32,000 bases of DNA from Haloquadratum walsbyi C23 (lineage in GTDB: Archaea; Halobacteriota; Halobacteria; Halobacteriales; Haloferacaceae), in assembly GCF_000237865.1 (NCBI RefSeq), contig NC_017459.1:2190001-2222000 (forward strand). The letters are read 5' to 3'. The position numbers were made by a program, and so were the translations under genes. Shown piece by piece: positions 4,731 through 24,285 of the stretch. Each line of letters begins with the position of its first letter. Positions within the stretch are counted from its first letter, which is position 1. A model generated the notes under the pieces. That model was not told the origin of the DNA. It saw only the letters and a list, made by a program, of their open reading frames with translations, and ran no database searches.

Positions 4731-6107
4731 TCAAGCTGCTGGCGTTGCTGGATCATCATCGGCGTCTCCATCAGTCTCAGCGGATGAGTCGTCTCCATCA
4801 AGAAGCCCATCATTGATATTGTCATCACCGTATTGCTCACGAAGTCGACGGATACGTGTTGGAATCGGCGGGTGAGTCATATGGAATGCAGCGTATGCTG
4901 GATGTGGGAACGGATTCTGCAGATTTTCCCCAGCGAGTGTTTGAAGTGCCTGTGTCATAGCCGCTGGTCCGCCCATGGTTTCGGCTGCGAAGTCATCAGC
5001 CTCACGCTCATGCGATAATGAAAGGCGGTTCGTCACGGGTGACAGAAGTCCAAGAACTGGTCCAGCATACAACAGTCCAATGCCTAATGCAGCGTATGTC
5101 ACCGATGGAAGATTAAATGCAGTATACACCCACTCAGAGCTGGTAATCCACCATAGGAAGGCAAAAACTGCTCCCATCTGGATTGTGGACGCAACAAGTT
5201 GCTTCCAAATATGTGCTTTCTTCCAGTGTGCAAGCTCGTGTGCGAGAACCGCCTGAATTGAATTGGTGCTCATTTGCTCGATAAGAGTGTCAAACAAAAC
5301 AACTCGTTTAGCGCGACCAAATCCAATGAAATATGCATTTGAGTGCGACGACCGACGGCTTGCATCCATTTCATATATTTGCTCACAATCGAATCCAGCC
5401 CGACTGAACACATCTTCAACCGCATCACGAAGCGCTCCGGACTCAATTGGCTCGAAATCGTTGAACAGCGGTGCAATTACCCGTGGATATATCACCATCG
5501 TCGCGAGTGAAACACCAATGACAATGAGCCATCCGAGAACAGGCCATAACGATGGGACGGCTTCGATGACCCAAAGGACGGTTCCACCAATCAGCGTAGC
5601 TGCAATGAGTCCAATCACAAGACCAATTATCCAGTCACGAAGCCATAGCATAACCGTTTGATTGTTGAATCCGAATCGATCCTCAATAACAAATGTCTTG
5701 TATAGATCAAATGGTGCACTGAGGAACCGCGAACCAGCAACAGCACCAGCGATGAGTAGTACACCTTGTATGGATGGAGTCAATCCAGTTTGTGTGAGCG
5801 CTCGCGTCAAATCAGTGTAGATCCCGGTCACTACAATAGCTAAGAGAATAGCAAGTCCGACCCATGATTGAATCCGTGAGAGGATTGTTGTTGAACGCTG
5901 GTATGCAAGGATTCGCTCAGGATCTGAAATATTGAGTCCATCACGAATCCATGTATCTGCATCGCGGACAGCTGCAGCCCCGTAACTGATATTAAGCATA
6001 TCAAGTGCTGAATACACCACCTGAACACCAACAAGCAAAACAGCTAGTCCAATGACTGGCGTTGAGAGCGAGAGCATATATAGAAGATGTGGAGCCGACG
6101 TTTTCAA
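4731..6107 (-). CDS. M48-family (Ste24/HtpX-like) zinc metalloprotease, membrane bound
   Basis: 458 aa with multiple TM segments. HELAHWKKAH is an HExxH motif and a downstream glutamate lies in SLSHEREAD. An acidic C-terminal tail is present. Confidence 0.85.
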   Translation of the reverse strand: MKTSAPHLLYMLSLSTPVIGLAVLLVGVQVVYSALDMLNISYGAAAVRDADTWIRDGLNISDPERILAYQRSTTILSRIQSWVGLAILLAIVVTGIYTDLTRALTQTGLTPSIQGVLLIAGAVAGSRFLSAPFDLYKTFVIEDRFGFNNQTVMLWLRDWIIGLVIGLIAATLIGGTVLWVIEAVPSLWPVLGWLIVIGVSLATMVIYPRVIAPLFNDFEPIESGALRDAVEDVFSRAGFDCEQIYEMDASRRSSHSNAYFIGFGRAKRVVLFDTLIEQMSTNSIQAVLAHELAHWKKAHIWKQLVASTIQMGAVFAFLWWITSSEWVYTAFNLPSVTYAALGIGLLYAGPVLGLLSPVTNRLSLSHEREADDFAAETMGGPAAMTQALQTLAGENLQNPFPHPAYAAFHMTHPPIPTRIRRLREQYGDDNINDGLLDGDDSSAETDGDADDDPATPAA

Positions 6108-6156
6108 CCCCTCGGGAGGGATAAAGATCGATATCTATGATTTGGTCTGAATTGTT

Positions 6157-6363
6157 CAATGCGGTTTGTACGTGCGTGAGGAACACGGCGATATGTGCAA
6201 CGCTGATATGAATAGGACGGAGAACATCCGTTTCGACATCAACAACACAGAAAGTAACTCCCAGTTTGCGTCCAACTTGGACGGGGATGTGAGTGTCGAC
6301 TGGTTGGCGCAGTCCAGGGTCATCCTTCGTGGTTTATCAGATAGATTTTCATCGAGAAAATAA
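6157..6363 (+). pseudogene. tnpB: C-terminal remnant (about 69 codons) of an IS1341-type tnpB
   Basis: The translation CGLYVREEHGDMCNADMNRTENIRFDINNTESNS...VDWLAQSRV aligns with the C-terminus of the intact TnpB at 19356-20720 (RGLYVCEEHGD..FNADVNGAENIRLDINQSNSES...GWLAQPGV). No upstream tnpB sequence is present, because the M48 gene start lies at 6107. Confidence 0.75.
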
Positions 6364-6437
6364 GTGGTAGAATGCAAACCCTACTATCACAACTGCGGTC
6401 GAGAATAATCGCTCTTCAACGCCGGGAGGATATCAAT
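6157..6437 (+). mobile_element. right-end (RE) remnant of an IS1341-type element: tnpB 3' fragment plus terminal non-coding segment
   Basis: Downstream of the remnant stop, tgcaaaccctactatc and gggaggatatcaat (6424-6437) match tgcaaaccctaatatc and ggaggaggatgtcaat on the minus strand after the intact tnpB. Similarity is lost after about 6437-6441. Confidence 0.6.
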
Positions 6438-8061
6438 CTGAGAGGTCAATATGTGTGGTAACATCAGTGACCGTTCCAACACCCTTTGATTGTCCCTCAC
6501 GGAATACAAAGCGTTGTCCCTCTTCTACAAGATATTGGCGAAATTTGAATTCGACAGTTGCAGTACCGGTATCGCCAGGAAGGAGTTGCCCCTCGTCTGG
6601 ATGAAAGATAACAGCTTCACTTGCTGTTTGAAGATGAACAACGGGTTCATAGCCATCACGAATTCGTGTCGGGTGATTGAGTACCATTATTTCAGCCTCA
6701 AATGAGCGAACAGCGGTTGGATCATTTTCCGCTGGAAGCAGTGCCATCCCGCGTTCAATATCTTCCTCATCGACACCTTTCAGTGCAATGCCAACGATTC
6801 TTCCTGCTTCCGCGCGGTCGACACGATGATAATGCATTTCAATTGAACGCACTTCGACATCACGGAATGAGCCATCCGGCATTGGACCAATTTGTAGTTC
6901 ATCACCAGCCTCAACACTACCAGATCCAACAGTCCCTGAGGCAACAGCACCAACACCAGTCACGGAGTATGTACGGTCAATGTACATCCGAAAATCATCT
7001 CGATCATGATTGGTTGTTTTCGGGAGAGACTCAAACATTGAGTCAAGCTCATCAAGCCCAGTCATCGTCACTGCACTTGTTCGGAGGATCGGGACAACTG
7101 AGTCACTTAGTTCATCAACAGCCGCCGCAACCCCATGTCGCTCGATCAAAAACGGCGTTCGACCGACATCGCGGAGTAATCGCTCAACAGCACGCTCAAC
7201 CTCAGCAACGCGGTCGGTATCAACCATATCAACCTTTGTGATTGCAACAACCGTCGGAAGTTCCATTGCAAGTAGAATGCCAAGGTGTTCACGTGTGGTC
7301 TTTGTCGGACCATCATCAGCAGCGACGACAAGAAGTCCATAATCAAGTCGCTGCCCAACAAGTCCACGGATAGTTGTTCGAAGCCACGGTTCATGTCCTA
7401 CTGTGTCAACAAACGAGACAAGACGGTCTGACTCTTCGACAACCCGGGCTCGGTCTGATTTCCGATGTGGATTATCCATATGGACGGTGTCAGTGTCAGT
7501 AAATCCATACACAGCATATGAGAGGTCAGCTGAGAGACCGCGCTCAACCTCATGTGGTTGTACATCAAGAAAACCACGGGTCTGCCCCTGCCCATCATCA
7601 GCAGTCCCAGTCACGAGTGAGCCAACAAGCGTCGACTTTCCATGATCAACGTGACCGGCTGTCCCAACGACAATATGATCATCGTCGACATTGAGCATTG
7701 ACCCCTCGTTGAGAGTTGCAACCCCAACACGCCCACGCTCTGTTTCAGTACCAACTCCCCAGGTTTCAACATCCTCAATATGTGCTCCAGCCTCTTCGGC
7801 AAGCACAGAAAGAACATCCATTGACTCTGAGAACGCATCCGCAGAAATGCCGGCAATACCGCCATCGTCGGTCACACCGATAACGTACATCGCGGTGCCA
7901 TCGCCTGAGAGTATTCGATGGCGCAACTGTGCTGCGAGACTCTCAAGTCGTCCATCTGCGAGGTGTACCTCACGAGAGAGTCGTTCTTTGAACTCAACGT
8001 TTCCTCCCTCCTCCTCGCCGCGATCGAGGGCCGCCTCAAGAGCGGCCCGATCCGCGCTCAT
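6433..8061 (-). CDS. GTPBP1-like translational-type GTPase (EF-1alpha/EF-Tu domain architecture)
   Basis: G1 GHVDHGKST, G3 DTVGHE and G4 TKVD are followed by beta-barrel domains. The start is assigned to the ATG at 8061 (MSADRAALEAALDRGEEEGG). The 72 upstream codons of the tracked ORF (CLCLWLCC...SQSQS) are translated simple repeats. Confidence 0.85.
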   Translation of the reverse strand: MSADRAALEAALDRGEEEGGNVEFKERLSREVHLADGRLESLAAQLRHRILSGDGTAMYVIGVTDDGGIAGISADAFSESMDVLSVLAEEAGAHIEDVETWGVGTETERGRVGVATLNEGSMLNVDDDHIVVGTAGHVDHGKSTLVGSLVTGTADDGQGQTRGFLDVQPHEVERGLSADLSYAVYGFTDTDTVHMDNPHRKSDRARVVEESDRLVSFVDTVGHEPWLRTTIRGLVGQRLDYGLLVVAADDGPTKTTREHLGILLAMELPTVVAITKVDMVDTDRVAEVERAVERLLRDVGRTPFLIERHGVAAAVDELSDSVVPILRTSAVTMTGLDELDSMFESLPKTTNHDRDDFRMYIDRTYSVTGVGAVASGTVGSGSVEAGDELQIGPMPDGSFRDVEVRSIEMHYHRVDRAEAGRIVGIALKGVDEEDIERGMALLPAENDPTAVRSFEAEIMVLNHPTRIRDGYEPVVHLQTASEAVIFHPDEGQLLPGDTGTATVEFKFRQYLVEEGQRFVFREGQSKGVGTVTDVTTHIDLSD

Positions 8062-8275: not shown

Positions 8276-8389
8276 ATCGACAGATTGGCTGTACGATGAG
8301 AGCCGGTTAATTGGAGTAACCTATGGGAAGCACGCGAATCACCGCTGAACGGGAGTCACGATTGTTGTCCTGAGTTACAAAAAGTGAGA

Positions 8390-8706
8390 CTCTCCCGCGG
8401 TTGAAGACCTGTCTCTTACCCATAAGTTCGTGGAGTCGTAACCGGACGTTTCAGACGCTGTCAGAGGTATTTTGAACGCAGAAAATCGAGGAGAGAGGCG
8501 ATTCAAACAGTGATATTGGCTGTGGGGGTTATAGAACGCCGGTAATCAACTCCACTACGATTGTTCCAAAGAGGTATTAAATCTGTAGATACCGAGGATT
8601 TCAGTTGTGCTCGCCGATCCCGATCCCGTTCCGCTAAAGTCTTGACTCGAGTTGTGGGTAAGAGATAGGGTTGAAGACGCGGGTATTCTCCTTGTACTCT
8701 ATAACT
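8390..8706 (-). mobile_element. solo LE-type palindromic unit (IS1341/PATE-like end), split by MITE copy 1
   Basis: With 8409-8678 removed, the sequence reads ...cccgcg gttgaaga cgcggg tattctccttgtactctataact. This is about 35 nt homologous to the unit upstream of the intact tnpB (20816-20830 plus 22771-22802). Confidence 0.5.
8409..8668 (+). mobile_element. MITE copy 1 (260 bp) with IS4/Tn5-like termini
   Basis: Termini are ctgtctcttaccca... and ...tgggtaagagatag. It is flanked by a perfect 10-bp direct repeat ggttgaagac (8399-8408 and 8669-8678). The interior is collinear with copies at 20831-21089 and 30590-30848. Confidence 0.85.
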
Positions 8707-8730
8707 GGGCGTAGTATTGGGAGATCACTA

Positions 8731-9592: not shown

Positions 9593-10822
9593 ATGACTGG
9601 GATAGAACAAGACGGTGACGAAACGGATACCATTGAGCAGATGCACCCTGACAGAGTCGGGCACATCCTTTCGGCGGGTGAGAAGAAACCAGTCCGGGTG
9701 TATCTTGAAGACGGCGAGATTACTGTCCCTATCAAGCCAGTCAAAGAGCGCAGAGGACCGGAAACGGTGACCGTGCCGTGCGCGTGCTTTGACGCAATAG
9801 TTGATATGGTTGATATCGCTGACGCTGGAGAAACCATCTACGCGAGATTCCACCTCCCAGAGAGTGAGTGGTATCGTCTTGGTCTTCATAAACACTGGGA
9901 GGAAGACAACGCCGAGGACTGGAGATGTGAGCGGATTATCGAGGTGTGGCTGAGCCGGTTCAAAAACACTTCATCCGGCGAGTACGACTCTGACAGGTAC
10001 AGCTCCCCCGTGCCGTCCGACTCTCCAACTGTCACAATCTACGAAGAACACGACTTCGAAATTAACTCACCACCAGCACCATTTGACCGACCAGATCTTG
10101 AGTTCGACGTTGCGACGGCGGAGAGTGTCTCTAATTATCATAACGCCCGCACCCGCCACACTCTCGGTTCTGTCAAAACGGTTGAACTGCTGGACAGCAT
10201 CGACGAATGTCCGGAGAAACGAGATGTCAGTCCGCCGAATGGGAGATACAAGATACCATCAAAACACCCGCAAGTTGACTTCGACGAGGTTGACCCACTT
10301 CCGATTGACGGGAATATTCTCGCCGCTGTCCACGCCATCAATCGCCACGCCAAGCGTCTTAATGAGGAGGCAGACCGGGCATACAAAATTGGTGAAGGGG
10401 CTGAAGCAAAAGTGAAATCCACTCAGAAGAAGGCACTGTACGATGCTAAGACCATTGCCGTCCACCGTCTCACGAAGTCCGCTCCTGATGCTGTCGACCT
10501 CCATCTCCACGGACTGTATGAGGATGTTGAGATGTACTGCTTCCGGTTCTCCACCGACTATTCCTTCCATCAACCGAGGGACGCCGTTGATGACGAGTTG
10601 CTGGATGCTGTCGGGTGGAACGTACATAATGAAGAAGCACGGGAAATCGACTTCCAACCATCTACAGACGTGAGTAATCTCCAGTTGTCTCTGTCAGAGG
10701 CACTGGGCGTTCTTTCTAGCCATGGAATCGACGCCAATGATCATCTCCAGACCGAAGTTGTCGAGGACTATACATTTGGGTACCGAATCTCAACGATATT
10801 CAGAATTGATGATGATGACTGA
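9593..10822 (+). CDS. hypothetical acidic protein, no family recognised
   Basis: 409-aa ORF with haloarchaeal acidic composition and an Asp-rich C-terminus. The opposite-strand ORFs 9452-9895 and 10138-10657 look like shadows. Confidence 0.6.
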   Translation: MTGIEQDGDETDTIEQMHPDRVGHILSAGEKKPVRVYLEDGEITVPIKPVKERRGPETVTVPCACFDAIVDMVDIADAGETIYARFHLPESEWYRLGLHKHWEEDNAEDWRCERIIEVWLSRFKNTSSGEYDSDRYSSPVPSDSPTVTIYEEHDFEINSPPAPFDRPDLEFDVATAESVSNYHNARTRHTLGSVKTVELLDSIDECPEKRDVSPPNGRYKIPSKHPQVDFDEVDPLPIDGNILAAVHAINRHAKRLNEEADRAYKIGEGAEAKVKSTQKKALYDAKTIAVHRLTKSAPDAVDLHLHGLYEDVEMYCFRFSTDYSFHQPRDAVDDELLDAVGWNVHNEEAREIDFQPSTDVSNLQLSLSEALGVLSSHGIDANDHLQTEVVEDYTFGYRISTIFRIDDDD

Positions 10823-19290: not shown

Positions 19291-19480
19291 ATTGACATCC
19301 TCCTCCGCGTGAACGCGGAGGAATCCCACGGCACCACACCGCTTGGGTTGGGATATTAGGGTTTGCAGTCTCCCACCTCTGCCCGAGGTTGGAATCCTCG
19401 GGAAAGGTCATAAAGGTAGACTCCGGGCTGTGCCAACCAGCCGGTACTCCTATCCCCACCCAAATCGGGTGCAGACTCAG
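19291..19480 (-). ncRNA. predicted omega RNA (reRNA) scaffold region of the TnpB element
   Basis: By analogy with characterised TnpB systems, the guide RNA scaffold overlaps the tnpB 3' end and runs to the RE. A 9-bp hairpin tcctccgcg-tgaa-cgcggagga lies at 19301-19322. The 5' extent is not determinable by eye. Confidence 0.3.
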
Positions 19481-20720
19481 AGTTACTTTGATTAATGTCG
19501 AGACGGATATTCTCCGCCCCATTCACATCAGCGTTGAACGCATCCCCGTCGCCGTCGCCGTCGCCGTGTTCTTCACACACGTACAAGCCACGCTCAACAC
19601 GCTGACTCTCGTCTTCTCTCCCACAGACACAACACGTCTTGCTTGTGTCGCGCTCTGACACTTCTCCGACTTCGATTCCCTCACCCTTCGCTTTGTATTC
19701 GAGGATGTTCGAGAACCTGTCGAAGGCCCACCCGTGCAAGTCAAGATTACCGTGCTTCCCCCAGTTCTTCGACTCACCGTTACCGTTGTCGTCTTCGCGG
19801 ACACCAGCGAGTTTTCCGATGTTGATGCGCCCAACACCGTTTTCGATGCATCGCTGAACGATGTGTGTCGCCAAAGAGTGGAAAAAGTGGGTTCGGCGCT
19901 CCGACCACTTCGCATGGAGTCGAGTAGCCCTGTCACCACCAGAGTCATCACACTTGGCGATTTCTTTCGGGAAGTAGTAGCCGTCCTGTTTCAGGCGGTT
20001 GCCGGGGTAGAGGTCGGCTTCCTCGGTGCTGTACGAGATAGCGGCGAAGTTACAGATACCGAGGTCGATACCAGCAGTCTCGGTGCCGGGCGCGGTGGGT
20101 GTCTCGATTTCGTGCTTGCAGACGAGGTGAAGTTCCCACCGCTGTTTCGCCCTATCGTAGACTGTTCGAACCTGTTGGAGGTTCTCGACGGTGACACCGG
20201 GTGCGGTTTCGTACTCAATAAGGATGTATTCCCACGCTTTCGGGTGTTGTTTGTGATTCGCGCCTTTTGAGAGTCGAACGCGGTTGTTCTTGGTGTCGTG
20301 TTTGATGCCGTTCTGCTTCCACGTTACTGTTGAACGAGGGTGTTCTTCGTGGACGCGGCGACCCTGTTGGTCGTAGTAGTTTTTTTTGCGGTAGCCGGGC
20401 GGATTCGCTCGACTGTCAGACTTCCTCTTGCCGTACCACGAGTTGAAGGCTTCAGCGAGTTCCTCCAGAACGCGCTGACTGGATTGACTGTGCAATCCCT
20501 TGTAGTTATTGTGAGTCTTCAACTCGGTTTTGAGGTCGCCGTGGTCGGGTATCTCGCCCGTGGCTTCCCACTGTTGTCGAGAGTGGTAGTTGGCGACATT
20601 CCAGAGTTTCGATGCACTCCACCCATGCCGGTCAAGCGAGTCCGCTACCTGTGCGTGGTTGCAGATCTTCGCTTGATGGGTTCGGTGGACTTCCAACATT
20701 CTGAACGTCTGTATAATCAT
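19356..20720 (-). CDS. tnpB: TnpB (IS1341-type RNA-guided endonuclease, OrfB family)
   Basis: 454 aa. RuvC-I is AGIDLGICN. The zinc finger reads CCVCG...YVCEEHG. RuvC-III is FNADVNGAENI. An alternative start is Met8 (20699, MLEVHRT), with gtataaat about 25 nt upstream. Confidence 0.9.
   Translation of the reverse strand: MIIQTFRMLEVHRTHQAKICNHAQVADSLDRHGWSASKLWNVANYHSRQQWEATGEIPDHGDLKTELKTHNNYKGLHSQSSQRVLEELAEAFNSWYGKRKSDSRANPPGYRKKNYYDQQGRRVHEEHPRSTVTWKQNGIKHDTKNNRVRLSKGANHKQHPKAWEYILIEYETAPGVTVENLQQVRTVYDRAKQRWELHLVCKHEIETPTAPGTETAGIDLGICNFAAISYSTEEADLYPGNRLKQDGYYFPKEIAKCDDSGGDRATRLHAKWSERRTHFFHSLATHIVQRCIENGVGRINIGKLAGVREDDNGNGESKNWGKHGNLDLHGWAFDRFSNILEYKAKGEGIEVGEVSERDTSKTCCVCGREDESQRVERGLYVCEEHGDGDGDGDAFNADVNGAENIRLDINQSNSESAPDLGGDRSTGWLAQPGVYLYDLSRGFQPRAEVGDCKP
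19547..19568. repeat. hexanucleotide tandem repeat (cgtcgc x3 plus partial) inside tnpB, encoding GDGDGDGD
   Basis: Direct reading. The remnant copy at 6157-6363 has HGDMCNAD where this copy has HGDGDGDGDAFNAD. Confidence 0.8.
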
Positions 20721-20830
20721 TTATACTCGCTTCAGTATTAACGTTTGGTGTTTGAGAATGGTGGAATATCCCGTCCAGCCATCGGCGGTGGTTGCGGAGG
20801 AGTTGTCGGATTCATCCCGCGCCTGAAGAC

Positions 20831-21089
20831 CTGTCTCTTACCCACAACTCGAGTCAGGATTTTAGCGGAACGGGATCGGGATCGGCGAGCACGACTGAAA
20901 TCCTCGGTATCTACAGTTTCAGCACCTCTTTGGAACAATTGTAGTGAGCTTGATTACCGGCGTTCTGTCACCCCCACAGCCGATATCACTATTTGAATCG
21001 CTTCTCGCCTCGATTTTTTGATTCAAAATACCTCTGAGAGCGTCTGAAACGTCCGGTTACGACTCCACGAACGTATGGGTAAAAGACAG
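20831..21089 (-). mobile_element. MITE copy 2 (259 bp), inverted relative to copies 1 and 3
   Basis: Termini are ctgtctcttacccacaac... and ...tgggtaaaagacag. It is flanked by gcctgaagac at 20821-20830 and 21090-21099. The interior is nearly identical to copy 3; the ORF-track peptides across the two copies are identical. Confidence 0.85.
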
Positions 21090-21099
21090 GCCTGAAGAC

Positions 21100-22760
21100 C
21101 TGTCTCTTACCCATAACTCAATACTAGAGGGTAATTTCGACCAAATCAGGCATGAAAAGAAGAAATCAATCAAATTTCCATCAGTATCTGCCCAAGATTA
21201 GAGAAGTATCCATGAAGCCGCTTGGAAAGCTCAGCTGAACTCGTTATTTCGGCGGGTTCTGCTGAATGAGCCGCGAAGCGCGCTCATTCAGTACCGAGTT
21301 CGTATCCTTCAGCCCACATGCGTAGCTTCTGGAGTCCTTTCCACATCGTCTTCCACCCTGGTGGCGGATCTGAACCACGATCAAGATAACCGCCGAGTTT
21401 AGCCACGCTCACTGCGTATGATTTCCCATCTTGACCGCTCAATTCTGGAAATTTCGTTTCCAGAATTGTGCGCTCTGCCTCACTCAGCAGGACCGCCGGA
21501 GATACTGAACTATCATCACGAGCAAGTTCTCGTAGCTCCAGAACTTTCCACGCGATCACTGAATACATGCTCAACAACACTTCCATCCGCTCCCAAGTCT
21601 GCAGTTGCCGTTCTTCGATGTTACAGCCACTCTTGAGCACTTTATGCCAGTCTTCAATTCGCCAGCGGAGACCGTAATAGTCGATGAGTGTCAGCGTTTC
21701 CTCAAACTCTTCGACCGATTCAGTGGTGAGCAACACCCACTGAATCGGGTCGTCATTTTCACCGACCTCGTCAACTCTCACGACATTCACCTCGATTGAA
21801 CCCTCTTGTTCAGGATTATTCTTTGGCGCGCGCAACTCACACGTTCCAGTGGCTATCGACAACTCCGCTGTTCTCGCTTCGCGCCCACCTCCCTGTTGAA
21901 TCTCGATTGTTTTGCGACCTTGCTCGGCAAGGTCGCTGCTCCAGTCAAAGAGTTTTCCAGGTTCACCATCATCAGTCCAAATCCGTCGGTTTTGACTCGC
22001 TCGGATGATGAAGCCAGCATTTTCCATCTCTCTGGTGACTCCCTCGTAGAACGCGAATGAATCTGCGCCTCGGTCATGGATAAATAGCGGGCGGATATCG
22101 TCGGCAAGCCAGTCTCTGGCTTGCCTGTCGCCACGGCTCCATTTCTCATGTTCACTGTCAAGTTGAATCGGCTCTGCTTTGCCGTTGGCATCGTACTTCT
22201 CATCGGCCTGCTGGTCCTCGATCAGCGGCTGCTGATCGATGACCCCAGTCATTCGATGGGTCCGTGGATTGATTCCGATCGTGGAGTGAAGCTTGATACC
22301 TTCGAGATCCATTTCAGAGTTGCCAATATCGCCGAGACCCTCCTTGGAGGGGTGTCTCGGAAACACGAGTTCGGTGGTATCGGAGACAATCAGGAGTTCG
22401 TCTGACCGACTCACTCTTGATTGCTGTTGCTGCTTGTGAGCAGAGAGAACCTCGTTGGGATCCACACTCTCATTATCGCAAAATCGGTATGTAGCTTTTG
22501 TGGACGCCCAGTCTCCGCAGGCAGCAGGGATGGACTCGGCAGGTGAGCTGCCGAGTTCATCCCCAAGTTGTACTAGTCGGTCACTCAGGCGCTTGTCTCC
22601 AAACTCGGCTGATCGAAACTCCGTTTGAATCCATCCTGAAACATCCATGTCACACAGCTGCCCATCTTCATCGAGTTCTGGCTTCCAACTCCGTGAGCGA
22701 CGCCCCATCTACCAATCTTGGTTCGTCTACTCTTGTATTACACTTGTGGGTAAGAGACAG
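21100..22760 (-). mobile_element. IS4-family (IS50/Tn5-like) insertion sequence, 1661 bp
   Basis: Imperfect terminal inverted repeats are ctgtctcttacccataactcaatac and (reverse complement) ctgtctcttacccacaagtgtaatac. The first 10 nt equal the Tn5 mosaic end CTGTCTCTTA. The element is flanked by gcctgaagac at 21090-21099 and 22761-22770. Confidence 0.9.
21284..22708 (-). CDS. IS4-family DDE transposase (Tn5 Tnp-like)
   Basis: 474 aa. The N-terminus FGDKRLSDRLVQLG...ATYRFCDNESV is like the Tn5 Tnp DNA-binding region. DDE context is IVSDTTEL and FIHDRGADSF. The Y(2)R(3)E(6)K signature appears in YGLRWRIEDWHKVLK. Confidence 0.9.
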   Translation of the reverse strand: MGRRSRSWKPELDEDGQLCDMDVSGWIQTEFRSAEFGDKRLSDRLVQLGDELGSSPAESIPAACGDWASTKATYRFCDNESVDPNEVLSAHKQQQQSRVSRSDELLIVSDTTELVFPRHPSKEGLGDIGNSEMDLEGIKLHSTIGINPRTHRMTGVIDQQPLIEDQQADEKYDANGKAEPIQLDSEHEKWSRGDRQARDWLADDIRPLFIHDRGADSFAFYEGVTREMENAGFIIRASQNRRIWTDDGEPGKLFDWSSDLAEQGRKTIEIQQGGGREARTAELSIATGTCELRAPKNNPEQEGSIEVNVVRVDEVGENDDPIQWVLLTTESVEEFEETLTLIDYYGLRWRIEDWHKVLKSGCNIEERQLQTWERMEVLLSMYSVIAWKVLELRELARDDSSVSPAVLLSEAERTILETKFPELSGQDGKSYAVSVAKLGGYLDRGSDPPPGWKTMWKGLQKLRMWAEGYELGTE

Positions 22761-22986
22761 GCCTGAAGACGCGGGTATTCTCCTCGAAATTCTATAATAA
22801 CTCTGAGCATTCGCTTACACTGAATATCACAATGCAGTGATTGACCGGTACAGTACACAATGTGGCATAGTCGGCTTGTGACGTCGCCAAATGCTCATAT
22901 TGATACATTGTTAATATGATGAGGGAATATGTGTAATACCAAGAGACATACTCACGGTGCTATTGAGTTCCGCTATAACTAATACA

Positions 22987-24285
22987 ATGTCTGTAAATAT
23001 TGAAACACACTGGCATCCAACGACTAAATTAAATGCCATTGGGAATGAGCTTGATTTTAGTCGCATCGATCCACTTCCATCAGGGGTCGAACGCGATCAA
23101 ATTGAGGAATACTGTTATACTGTTGAACAGTTGTATGGAGCATATATCGAAACAATTAGGAATAAAACAATTCTTTCACAGCGAGAGGCACAGACATGGG
23201 TTCTTCGGAATCTTGTCCATGAGGGAGCTGATCGACTTACTTTTGATGCAGTTGGACTATATATATGGGCAATTGGACGAGAGACAAGCGGTGATCCACT
23301 TTCACGAACAATCATTGCTGAGTATCACGACCATGCGGTGTCAAAAATTGATGATGCAACAGCAACGATGATGCATGCCGGTGCACCGCCATATCCGGAT
23401 GATGTGCTTGATGACCCAGTCGCGCTATGGGTTGACGCCACTGCACGGCGGCGAATCGCCAATCGGCGATTGACAGATGAAAGTTATAGCGACGTGCTTG
23501 AGCGATTGCTTGATGAAACCGCTCACACAATTTCACTTGAAGAGCTTGTTAAGACGTATCAGAACCAGTTTAATTCACTCGCGACGGTTGCTGTCCAGAC
23601 CGTGCGACCAGCATGGGACCGCGAAATTCCGCTCTCAGTGCATATCAACTCTGAAGATGAGACATCGGTTGATGAGCCCAATGATATCACGACATCGCAG
23701 TTGATTCCAGAAGTAGTCTCAACGGCAGATATGCTCTCATTCAGCAATCAAGTGCTTCCATTTAGCGTTGAAAGCCGCCCTGCAACAACTGGAACAGACT
23801 CAATGCTTGTCGTCTATGCTGACGGAGTTCATCATGAGTCTGTCTCGATCGCAGACGGTATTGTCCGATTGACCCGAGCGATTGACGCAGCAGATGAGAC
23901 GCTTCAGACAGTCAGTGACCGGGCTCAAGCGAGTGGAGTCTGCGCACTTGGCGTGCGGAATGAGCCAGTTGGCAATGGTGTGCATCTTGTGCTGATCGCC
24001 CCATCATCACTGGCGGTACATCCTGGGGATGAGCCTGGTGGCTTTATTCCACCAGAGCGACTTTCAGTTGCTGATCGGACACTGTCGGTTGAGCGGGTAA
24101 CAAATGTAACCCCAACACTGTATCACGAGGAATATCGCCCGGATACAACGCTTATTTGGGTTGCAAATAAGACGTCGATGGCTGAATCATGTGTTGAGAG
24201 TCATCTTGATGGGCCTTCCTCGATTCCAGAGACAAATAGCGCACAACGAGAATTGTTCCCAACGTCAGTGCTCCAGACCGGATGA
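22987..24285 (+). CDS. hypothetical protein with possible N-terminal helix-turn-helix segment
   Basis: 432 aa from the ATG at 22987; the tracked ORF starts at an upstream GTG at 22957. ILSQREAQTWVLRNLVHEG resembles LuxR/sigma-70-region-4-type HTH sequences. The rest is unrecognised. Confidence 0.55.
   Translation: MSVNIETHWHPTTKLNAIGNELDFSRIDPLPSGVERDQIEEYCYTVEQLYGAYIETIRNKTILSQREAQTWVLRNLVHEGADRLTFDAVGLYIWAIGRETSGDPLSRTIIAEYHDHAVSKIDDATATMMHAGAPPYPDDVLDDPVALWVDATARRRIANRRLTDESYSDVLERLLDETAHTISLEELVKTYQNQFNSLATVAVQTVRPAWDREIPLSVHINSEDETSVDEPNDITTSQLIPEVVSTADMLSFSNQVLPFSVESRPATTGTDSMLVVYADGVHHESVSIADGIVRLTRAIDAADETLQTVSDRAQASGVCALGVRNEPVGNGVHLVLIAPSSLAVHPGDEPGGFIPPERLSVADRTLSVERVTNVTPTLYHEEYRPDTTLIWVANKTSMAESCVESHLDGPSSIPETNSAQRELFPTSVLQTG

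What the first reader, a model, noticed from the sequence alone, without database searches (positions are those of the whole stretch)
6157..6441. Orphan tnpB 3' remnant (the omega-RNA-coding part only) wedged between two housekeeping genes; its terminus supplies the GTPase stop codon
Only the last ~69 codons of a tnpB plus about 75 nt of RE-like sequence survive. That is the part which encodes the guide-RNA scaffold in characterised TnpB systems. The conserved terminal motif gggaggatatcaat (6424-6437) overlaps the TGA (6433-6435, minus strand) and the last codon of the convergent GTPBP1-like gene. The GTPase C-terminus and stop are therefore element-derived. Any transcript running out of the remnant would be antisense to the GTPase 3' end. 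Sense-overlapping RNAs from IS1341-type genes have been reported as stable ncRNAs in Halobacterium (from memory). Selective retention of this portion suggests possible domestication as a regulatory or orphan guide RNA.
Basis: partly seen in the sequence, partly recalled or inferred. Interest (0 to 1): 0.65.

Follow-up and report, generated by a model that had tools for sequence, protein, structure and literature searches.

The report
Decaying tnpB transposon stump beside GTPase
This is a real but ordinary piece of transposon debris in Haloquadratum walsbyi: the last ~285 bases of an IS1341-type (tnpB) element, whose final bases happen to supply the stop codon of the neighbouring GTPase gene, with no sign that it has been kept for a function.

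Summary
Window 6153-6436 (+) is the 3' end of an IS200/IS605-family (IS1341-type) tnpB element. It is 53% identical to residues 375-446 of the intact TnpB at 19356-20720, and Rfam sot0042 (the haloarchaeal omega-RNA) matches 6252-6427.

Seventy-five family copies end at ...GGAKRTCAA, so the right end is base 6436. The GTPase stop (TGA, 6433-6435 minus) and the third base of its last codon are therefore element DNA. The rest of the GTPase tail is not. The remnant-free sister lineage J07HQW1 has a homologous tail of equal length, ending GAG-TAA on a TTAC target.

Stop-codon supply is a family habit: 11 of 14 long convergent ORFs end at that TGA. It follows from the TTAC/TTATA target preference.

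Domestication is not supported. The RNA-like part keeps 37/49 consensus pairs against 47-49 in most relatives. Its hallmark UUCA hairpin is down to 4/9 pairs, and its folding z-score is -1.07 against -5.05 for the intact copy. The promoter-bearing left end is gone. Apparent sequence conservation traced to a chimeric contig and a mosaic one.

Published work already reports most H. walsbyi tnpB genes as disrupted, and already floated the retention-for-RNA idea. Verdict: ordinary, low interest.

The parts
6146..6249 (+). Remnant of the tnpB 3' coding region, equivalent to TnpB residues ~375-405. It covers the second half of the zinc ribbon, with Cys replaced by Arg, and the RuvC-III 'NADxN' stretch. 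It carries an 18-nt deletion relative to its relatives.
   Evidence: BLASTP to the intact TnpB, 53% identity, E 5e-15. tblastn census. blastn to plasmid tnpB genes from window 6153. A 4-nt indel and 13/100 differences in contig L153.
6250..6436 (+). Segment homologous to the sotRNA/omega-RNA scaffold, running to the element's right end. The tnpB-frame stop lies at 6361-6363.
   Evidence: Rfam RF02656 hit at 6252-6427, 27.4 bits, below the gathering score of 88. 37/49 family-consensus pairs. MFE z-score -1.07.
6406..6427 (+). Degraded subterminal right-end hairpin. The UUCA loop at 6415-6418 is kept. The 5' arm is TAATCGCTC, the 3' arm ACGCCGGGA, and only 4 of 9 pairs remain.
   Evidence: Family copies have 8-9 paired positions with compensatory changes. 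The L153 variant C6412A breaks one more pair.
6428..6436 (+). Terminal GGATATCAA, the right-end terminus. The element ends at A6436.
   Evidence: The last five bases are GTCAA in 70, GTCAT in 3 and ATCAA in 2 of 75 copies. The following base varies. Published H. walsbyi element ends also read ...GGATGTCAA (PMC3119063 Table S9).
6433..6435 (-). TGA stop codon of the GTPase gene, lying inside the element terminus. The third base of the last codon, GAT (complement of A6436), is also element DNA.
   Evidence: J07HQW1 has GAG-TAA at the same place.
6433..8061 (-). GTPBP1-family GTPase gene, 542 aa, convergent with the remnant.
   Evidence: Pfam GTP_EFTU, D2 and D3 domains. Identical protein in H. 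walsbyi DSM 16790 AM180088.1.
6108..6145 (.). Short non-element spacer upstream of the M48 protease gene. It is polymorphic. The stretch CCCTCCCGAG on the gene strand is shared with J07HQW1 and J07HQW2.
4731..6107 (-). M48-family (CAAX/HtpX-like) protease gene on the same strand as the GTPase. Its start is TTG 6107 or ATG 6077.
   Evidence: Pfam Peptidase_M48_N and Peptidase_M48. GTPase-M48 synteny in J07HQW1, J07HQW2 and J07HQX50.
19292..20720 (-). Comparison copy in the same window: an intact 454-aa tnpB with a well-folded omega-RNA region and right end ...GGAGGATGTCAA ending at 19292.
   Evidence: Pfam OrfB_IS605 and Cas12f1-like_TNB. Rfam sot0042 at 67.7 bits. MFE z-score -5.05. 48/49 consensus pairs.

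Best explanation
The feature is a dead, 5'-truncated copy of an IS1341-type (IS200/IS605-family, tnpB-only) insertion sequence.

Inferred history: after the H. walsbyi DSM 16790/C23 lineage split from the J07HQW1/J07HQW2 lineages, the element inserted in the plus orientation. It landed immediately 3' of a TTAY target that lay, on the opposite strand, across the last base of the final sense codon and the TAA stop of the GTPase gene. The element's right end finishes with TCAA, whose complement is TTGA. The insertion therefore replaced '(G/A)-TAA' with 'T-TGA'. The protein kept its length of 542 aa, and only the last residue changed, from Glu to Asp.

Later a deletion removed the left end, about 1.2 kb of tnpB and probably most of the old GTPase-M48 spacer. 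This kind of event is very frequent in this genome.

What is left is drifting. The coding frame is broken and AT-biased substitutions have hit one arm of the right-end hairpin. It most likely has no function beyond passively providing the stop codon and about 290 nt of spacer.

Shown: identity, boundaries, absence from sister lineages, structural erosion, and the family-wide stop-codon pattern. Inferred: the order of events, the exact ancestral target (TTAT versus TTAC), and the lack of function.
For: Identity:
- Protein, DNA and RNA-model homology to tnpB 3' ends.

Boundary:
- 75 family copies from about 55 haloarchaeal genomes end at ...TCAA with a variable next base.
- Published H. walsbyi element ends read the same.

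Lineage-specific insertion:
- The GTPase-to-M48 spacer is 355 nt in H. walsbyi, 202 nt in J07HQW1, 174 nt in J07HQW2 and 46 nt in J07HQX50.
- J07HQW1 matches the window only from 6437 rightwards.
- Its empty site reads ...GTCGTTAC|TCTGAG.

Target:
- Elements with ...GGATGTCAA ends use TTAC or TTATA targets (PMC3119063 Table S9).
- Left-end flanks in my loci are TTATA, or TTAC in a few.

Stop supply is a general by-product:
- 22 of 31 convergent ORFs of at least 80 codons end exactly at the right-end TGA. So do 11 of 14 ORFs of at least 200 codons. One third would be expected, giving p = 2e-5 and 7e-4.
- 7 of 8 tested ORFs carry Pfam domains.

Decay:
- 37/49 consensus pairs against 47-49 in 17 of 19 relatives.
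- Terminal hairpin at 4/9 pairs.
- Folding z-score -1.07 against -5.05.
- 27.4 against 67.7 bits on the same Rfam model.
- The zinc-ribbon Cys is lost and 18 nt are deleted.

Base rate:
- 14 of 60 decidable right-end-bearing copies are 5'-truncated.
- A second truncated tnpB sits at the DUF7111 locus.
Against: - No transcript data were available, so a plus-strand RNA cannot be excluded.
- The first two helices of the RNA still pair: 13/14 and 5/5, including changes compensatory relative to relatives.
- Polymorphism in the remnant is low among 18 population sequences: 2/187 in the RNA-like part and 0/104 in the 5' part. GTPase third positions show 38/541. M48 third positions show 4/449, and the variable sites are clustered, so this is uninformative.
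- In the wider family sample, 8 of 14 truncated copies retain only the last 45-110 codons. That exceeds a uniform breakpoint model (p = 3e-4). It could reflect a bias towards keeping the RNA-coding end, or merely cumulative deletion together with my right-end-anchored search.
Confidence: 0.85

Rival explanations
1. The surviving omega-RNA/sotRNA-coding stump is retained because it still makes an RNA. That RNA would act either as an antisense regulator of the GTPase 3' end or as an orphan guide used in trans by an intact TnpB.
For: - The surviving piece covers the whole Rfam sot0042 model.
- Helices 1 and 2 still pair.
- There are precedents in Halobacterium salinarum (PMC4615843): a sotRNA antisense to a neighbour's 3' UTR, a probable sotRNA in a 120-bp truncated tnpB pseudogene, and expressed PATE-derived RNAs.
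- An intact tnpB exists 13 kb away.
- The remnant is present in every H. walsbyi contig examined.
Against: - The 'RE-like UUCA tetraloop', described as the hallmark of those functional RNAs, has lost its stem: 4/9 pairs, and 3/9 in the L153 allele.
- Helices 3 and 6 are also damaged.
- The fold is no better than shuffled sequence.
- sotRNAs lack their own BRE/TATA promoter and appear to be processed from the tnpB transcript. That promoter region is deleted here.
- The scaffold is only about 70% identical to that of the nearest intact copy.
- The conservation signals proved to be artefacts.
Confidence: 0.07
2. The minus strand of the remnant has been co-opted as the 3' UTR or terminator of the GTPase mRNA, or as part of the upstream region of the M48 protease gene.
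For: - Both genes are on the minus strand, and the remnant now makes up about 290 of the 325 nt between them.
- The minus strand carries a T-rich run, TTATTTTCT, about 85 nt after the stop.
- The ancestral spacer sequence seen in J07HQW1 and J07HQW2 is gone.
Against: - Nothing specific supports this. Spacers at this position differ completely among lineages, from 46 to 355 nt, so no particular sequence seems required.
- The likely M48 upstream region (6108-6145) lies outside the remnant.
- No archaeal promoter or terminator tool and no transcript data were available.
Confidence: 0.06
3. It is a PATE-like non-autonomous mobile element, with left and right ends fused, rather than a dead stump.
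For: PATEs derived from IS605-type elements by core deletion are common in H. walsbyi. Some keep part of the tnpB C-terminal coding region.
Against: - No left-end sequence or hairpin lies upstream of 6153.
- The right-end hairpin is broken.
- No second copy was found. The one apparent close copy, L003/P0001, is an assembly chimera.
- A viral-contig scan found nothing.
Confidence: 0.02

Closest known systems
Disrupted IS605-type / IS1341-type (tnpB) transposons and their remnants in Haloquadratum walsbyi (Dyall-Smith et al. 2011, PMC3119063)
   Same: - Same organism and same element class.
- Same 3' terminus, ...GGATGTCAA.
- Same TTAC/TTATA targeting.
- Same fate: deletions that leave 'short C-terminal remnants'.
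- Neighbouring left-end hairpins in this window are hit by SMR-type insertions, as that paper describes.
   Different: This particular copy has no close relative in the data I could reach; it is about 70% identical to the nearest. I could not check whether it is individually annotated in the published genomes.
sotRNAs / omega-RNAs of haloarchaeal IS1341-type tnpB genes (Rfam RF02656; Gomes-Filho et al. 2015, PMC4615843; renamed omega-RNAs in PMC12558985)
   Same: Same position, overlapping the last ~35 codons of tnpB and running to the right end. Same helix order. Full-length match to the model.
   Different: - The score is far below the gathering threshold: 27.4 against 88.
- The UUCA-tetraloop stem and two other helices are eroded.
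- There is no cognate tnpB or promoter in cis.
- Expression is unknown.
IS608 (Helicobacter pylori) peel-and-paste insertion: target TTAC, right end ending TCAA (from my own knowledge of the IS200/IS605 literature; the paper says only that ISHp608 uses a short targeting sequence)
   Same: Insertion 3' of a TTAC-type tetranucleotide without target duplication. The right end finishes in TCAA.
   Different: No tnpA is present here, and transposition itself was not tested. The stop-codon replacement is a consequence I infer from sequence comparison.

Membership tests
IS200/IS605 family, IS1341 group (tnpB-only element) | Sequence homology of the tnpB 3' end and right end to family members | tested here: met
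   53% aa identity to TnpB residues 375-446 and 68-74% nt identity to 25 plasmid tnpB ends.
IS200/IS605 family, IS1341 group (tnpB-only element) | Complete TnpB ORF (RuvC I-III and zinc ribbon) | tested here: not met
   Only the equivalent of residues ~375-454 remains. A zinc-ribbon Cys is replaced by Arg and 18 nt are deleted. There is no Pfam hit.
IS200/IS605 family, IS1341 group (tnpB-only element) | Left end with a subterminal hairpin preceded by the TTAC/TTATA target | tested here: not met
   There is no left-end-like sequence upstream of 6153. TTAC is seen only at the empty site of J07HQW1.
IS200/IS605 family, IS1341 group (tnpB-only element) | Right end: subterminal hairpin followed by GGAKRTCAA | tested here: inconclusive
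   The terminus GGATATCAA is present. The hairpin is reduced to 4/9 pairs.
sotRNA / omega-RNA (Rfam RF02656 sot0042) | Reaches the Rfam gathering score | tested here: not met
   27.4 bits against 88, with E 4.4e-5. The intact copy in the window also falls short, at 67.7 bits.
sotRNA / omega-RNA (Rfam RF02656 sot0042) | Conserved scaffold helices, including the right-end-like UUCA tetraloop on an 8-9 bp stem | tested here: not met
   Per-helix pairs are 13/14, 5/5, 5/8, 5/5, 2/3, 3/5 and 4/9, for a total of 37/49 against 47-49 in most relatives. Folding z-score is -1.07.
sotRNA / omega-RNA (Rfam RF02656 sot0042) | Transcribed or processed as a discrete RNA associated with TnpB | not testable with these tools
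   No transcript data were available. The cognate tnpB and left-end promoter are absent in cis.
PATE (palindrome-associated transposable element) | Both element termini with near-terminal palindromes, in multiple copies | tested here: not met
   There is no left end, the right-end palindrome is broken, and no further genuine copy was found. A whole-genome search of H. walsbyi was not possible.

The most novel reading that the evidence does not exclude
Despite its eroded 3' helices, the stump may still be transcribed on the plus strand. The RNA would keep helices 1-2 and run past 6436 into the GTPase gene. It would then act as a cis-antisense RNA on the GTPase mRNA 3' end. Alternatively it could be loaded in trans by one of the few intact H. 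walsbyi TnpB proteins as an orphan guide, with a guide segment equal to the GTPase 3' end. Either would be a domesticated remnant guide RNA without its nuclease gene.
Probability: 0.06. Interest if true: 0.55.

Novelty: new member of a known kind. Interest (0 to 1): 0.17.

Why it matters
For the finding itself, little. It is one more of the roughly 80 broken tnpB copies per genome already reported for H. walsbyi. The idea that such stumps persist because of their RNA was raised in 2015 and gains no support here.

Two by-products are mildly useful.

First, the case dates and reconstructs an insertion cleanly. A sister lineage preserves the empty TTAC site, which shows how a peel-and-paste element can land on a stop codon without harming the gene.

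Second, across about 75 haloarchaeal copies, the right-end TCAA supplies the TGA stop of a convergent gene far more often than chance predicts. This suggests that TTAC/TTATA targeting steers these elements to TAA stop codons in GC-rich genomes. Annotators should expect stop codons that sit inside IS ends.

Tried and rejected
1. Pfam and NCBIfam on the 69-aa fragment gave nothing relevant. Homology had to be shown by BLAST and Rfam.

2. P0001/L003 looked like a second remnant, 99% identical in the RNA-like part but about 83% identical upstream. I first read that as conservation. Longer contigs of the same H. walsbyi locus (L166-L171) show a different, family-typical RNA part. L003 is therefore an assembly chimera that switches to the GTPase-locus sequence.

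3. L153 gave 3/187 differences in the RNA-like part against 37/384 at neutral-proxy sites (p = 1.7e-4). The haplotype table shows it is mosaic. It has 38 private differences left of about 6240 and only 3 to the right, where its alleles are those of L147 and L149. I rejected it as evidence of constraint.

4. The population polymorphism test on 18 sequences is inconclusive, because diversity is patchy: M48 third positions 4/449 against GTPase third positions 38/541.

5. The metagenome scan for the junction 18-mer returned 19 loci, but only 5 were this locus. A viral-contig scan gave 0 hits.

6. RNAalifold on the whole heterogeneous family gave a poor consensus. I used the 19-sequence subfamily instead.

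7. I did not build a covariance model and did not run the bacterial promoter/terminator scanner, which does not apply to archaea.

8. I looked for the remnant in the supplementary tables of Dyall-Smith 2011 by HBSQ001 coordinates (~2,106,3xx-2,106,6xx). It was not listed among strain-specific elements, as expected for a feature shared by both strains.

9. HqIRS71 was considered and excluded, because its 3' end (...GTAGTTCAC) is a different type.
Full report
ORGANISM AND CONTEXT

The window is Haloquadratum walsbyi, at 48% G+C. The 542-aa GTPBP1-family GTPase encoded at 6433-8061 (minus) is identical to the protein of strain DSM 16790 (AM180088.1). It is also found in 225 blocks of saltern metagenome contigs. 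It carries EF-Tu GTP-binding, D2 and D3 domains.

Downstream on the same strand lies an M48-family protease gene, 4731-6107 or 6077. GTPase-then-M48 synteny is ancestral. It is kept in the MAGs J07HQW1, J07HQW2 and J07HQX50, with spacers of 202, 174 and 46 nt. The spacer is 355 nt in H. walsbyi proper, counted to the ATG start.

Yes. The plus-strand frame from 6157 reads VQCGLYVREEHGDMCNADMNRTENIRFDINN...SSRK and stops at 6361-6363.

- It aligns to residues 375-446 of the intact 454-aa TnpB in the same window (19356-20720 minus; Pfam OrfB_IS605 and Cas12f1-like_TNB). Identity is 53% and E is 5e-15.
- At the DNA level, window 6153-6443 matches the 3' ends of annotated TnpB genes on 25 haloarchaeal plasmids, at 68-74% identity and E down to 7e-29.
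- Rfam RF02656 (sot0042) matches 6252-6427 over its full length with E 4.4e-5. This family is the sense-overlapping transcript of Halobacterium IS1341-type genes, now regarded as their omega-RNA. The score of 27.4 bits is well below the gathering score of 88.
- The motif GGGAGGATATCAAT sits at 6424-6437, and TCA at 6433-6435 is the complement of the GTPase stop.

WHERE DOES THE ELEMENT END?

A scan of one genome per species for AAACCCTAMTATCMCAAC returned 120 loci. About 85 of them were haloarchaeal copies of this element family.

In 75 copies with a recognisable end, the sequence runs hairpin (8-9 bp, mostly with a UUCA loop), then GGAKR, then TCAA. The last five bases are GTCAA in 70, GTCAT in 3 and ATCAA in 2. 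The next base is T 33, C 21, G 13, A 7, which marks it as flank.

Table S9 of Dyall-Smith et al. 2011 draws H. walsbyi and Natronomonas element ends at the same ...GGATGTCAA. It lists their 5' targeting sequences as TTAC (HqIRS54, ISHwa24, ISNph18) or TTATA (HqIRS56). Left-end flanks in my loci agree: TTATA mostly, TTAC in a few.

The remnant therefore ends at A6436. The GTPase stop codon (6433-6435) and the third base of its last codon are element DNA.

IS THE GTPASE C-TERMINUS ELEMENT-DERIVED?

Only those four nucleotides are. After the conserved ...SKGVGTV, the tail varies among 120 orthologues. The closest lineages still align codon for codon:

- H. walsbyi: ACC ACA CAT ATT GAC CTC TCA GAT TGA
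- J07HQW1: ACT ACA CCT ACT GAT AAC TCA GAG TAA
- J07HQW2: one extra codon

J07HQW1 and J07HQW2 lack the remnant: blastn finds homology to the window only from 6437 rightwards.

On the plus strand the J07HQW1 site reads ...GTCGTTAC|TCTGAG, where the window reads ...GGATATCAA|TCTGAG. This is what insertion 3' of a TTAC target predicts; after a synonymous GAG/GAA change the target would be TTAT. The target moved to the far side of the element. The right-end TCAA took its place and turned (G/A)-TAA into T-TGA. Protein length is unchanged, and the last residue went from Glu to Asp.

STOP-CODON SUPPLY IS A FAMILY HABIT

Among the 75 copies, 31 open frames of at least 80 codons run convergently into the right end, and 22 of them stop exactly at the terminal TGA. 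Of the 14 frames of at least 200 codons, 11 do. Chance predicts one third, giving p = 2e-5 and 7e-4.

Seven of eight tested frames are real genes with Pfam domains: cytochrome b C-terminal domain, a ParA/NUBPL-family P-loop NTPase, a PQQ-repeat protein, an AIR-synthase-related (PurL-like) protein, a histone deacetylase, a NUDIX hydrolase, and DUF7345/7343.

The likely reason is an inference. In GC-rich haloarchaeal genomes, TTAC/TTATA is often the complement of a TAA stop. Insertions there are harmless because the element brings its own TGA in frame.

IS THE RNA-CODING PART INTACT?

No.

- I derived a consensus structure from 19 close subfamily members. On it, 17 have 47-49 of 49 pairs and two have 41. 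The intact copy in this window has 48. The remnant has 37.
- Its helices 1, 2 and 4 are kept (13/14, 5/5, 5/5). Helices 3, 5, 6 and 7 score 5/8, 2/3, 3/5 and 4/9.
- Helix 7 is the right-end-like UUCA tetraloop hairpin that Gomes-Filho et al. single out as the common motif of functional sotRNAs and PATE RNAs. Here the loop survives, but the 5' arm has changed to TAATCGCTC while the 3' arm ACGCCGGGA still resembles relatives such as L080/L128. These are one-sided, AT-ward substitutions.
- A population variant, C6412A in L153, breaks a further pair.
- The RNA-like segment folds no better than shuffled sequence: -53.7 kcal/mol, z = -1.07, with 28 of 200 shuffles as good. The intact copy gives -91.3 kcal/mol, z = -5.05, with 0 of 200.
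- The Halobacterium study found no BRE/TATA promoter upstream of sotRNAs, and northern blots and processing-site data point to processing from the tnpB transcript. The left end and 5' part of tnpB, where that transcript starts, are deleted here.

IS IT CONSERVED MORE THAN NEUTRAL DNA?

I found two apparent signals, and both collapsed.

(a) P0001/L003 looked like a paralogous stump nearly identical in the RNA-like part. L003's genes are H. walsbyi genes. Six longer contigs of that locus carry a different, family-typical truncated tnpB with a normal right end; in two of them an inserted repeat interrupts it. L003 is a chimeric assembly.

(b) The 1361-nt contig L153 differs from the window at 3 of 187 RNA-like positions. 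The neutral-proxy classes differ far more: 8/91 and 9/125 third codon positions, 7/68 spacer positions and 13/100 positions in the coding stump. The haplotype table shows L153 is mosaic. It has 38 private differences left of about 6240 and 3 to the right, where its alleles circulate in the main population (L147, L149).

Among 18 main-population sequences, segregating sites number 0/104 in the coding stump and 2/187 in the RNA-like part. The comparison classes show 4/449 for M48 third positions, 38/541 (clustered) for GTPase third positions, and 5/68 for the spacer. The test is inconclusive and gives no positive evidence of constraint.

BASE RATES

In my sample, which is anchored on the right end and therefore biased, 14 of 60 decidable copies are 5'-truncated. 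Breakpoints lie between residues 77 and 410, and 8 fall between 343 and 410.

In H. walsbyi itself, 77 of 82 and 83 of 100 tnpB genes are disrupted. Deletions leaving short C-terminal remnants are described explicitly.

The hypothesis that sotRNA presence explains the persistence of truncated tnpB pseudogenes was already stated in 2015, for a 120-bp Halobacterium pseudogene.

VERDICT

The feature is a genuine, correctly located tnpB 3' stump. Its last bases do supply the GTPase stop codon, and target-site choice explains that overlap. The domestication reading is not supported, although expression was not testable. It is an ordinary feature of this genome.

Noticed in passing
Family loci L021-L140 (right-end junctions); window 6433-6436: Across about 75 haloarchaeal IS1341-type copies, the terminal TCAA of the right end supplies the TGA stop of a convergent gene far more often than chance. 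This holds for 22 of 31 ORFs of at least 80 codons and 11 of 14 of at least 200 codons, and 7 of 8 tested have Pfam domains. It suggests that TTAC/TTATA targeting steers insertions onto TAA stop codons.
   Followed up: partly
window 8380-8710 (minus strand), between the DnaJ-like gene and the GTPase gene: There is an orphan IS605-type left end: TTATAGAGTACAAGGAGAATACCCGCG, then a hairpin. The TTCA loop of the hairpin is split by an insertion of about 270 nt with inverted ends (CCTATCTCTTACCCA ... TGGGTAAGAGACAGG), flanked by repeated TCTTCA. This resembles the SMR-A elements reported to attack PATE/IS605 hairpins in H. walsbyi.
   Followed up: partly
window 19292-22800 (minus strand): The intact tnpB (19356-20720) is separated from a left-end match at 22764-22784. 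In between lie a similar SMR-like insert (about 20840-21110) and an IS4-type DDE transposase gene (21284-22708). This is a nest of mobile elements inserted into one another.
   Followed up: partly
L166-L171, about 5287-5800 (H. walsbyi DUF7111 / archaetidylserine synthase locus): A second 5'-truncated tnpB (ORFs of 110-169 aa) has a well-preserved RNA-like part and right end. In L168 and L170 the right-end hairpin is interrupted by an insert of about 107 nt. The downstream gene differs among strains: SQS_PSY, Usp or Zip.
   Followed up: partly
L003 (ENA ERZ24791984 contig 2T053.MEGAHIT_0000000012412), 6550-6728; protein P0001: The end of this metagenome contig is chimeric. It joins the DUF7111-locus tnpB stump to the GTPase-locus stump, so the 113-aa protein P0001 in the public protein collection is an assembly artefact.
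   Followed up: yes
window 6493-6607 and 7531-8030 (GTPase gene): Synonymous polymorphism in the GTPase gene is strongly clustered, and the alleles are reshuffled among contigs. Third positions show 38/541 segregating sites, against 4/449 in the adjacent M48 gene. This indicates frequent short recombination tracts at the locus.
   Followed up: partly
window 6077-6122 (minus strand) and the same region in L016 and L018: The sequence CCCTCCCGAG(R)(R)(R)TTGAAA upstream of the annotated M48 ATG is conserved in H. walsbyi, J07HQW1 and J07HQW2. The 33 nt from TTG to ATG stay in frame, so the protease may start at TTG 6107 (458 aa) rather than at the ATG (448 aa).
   Followed up: no
window 9593-10822 (+) and 22957-24285 (+): Two long ORFs of 409 and 442 aa, the first very acidic, have no Pfam match at E <= 1e-5.
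   Followed up: no
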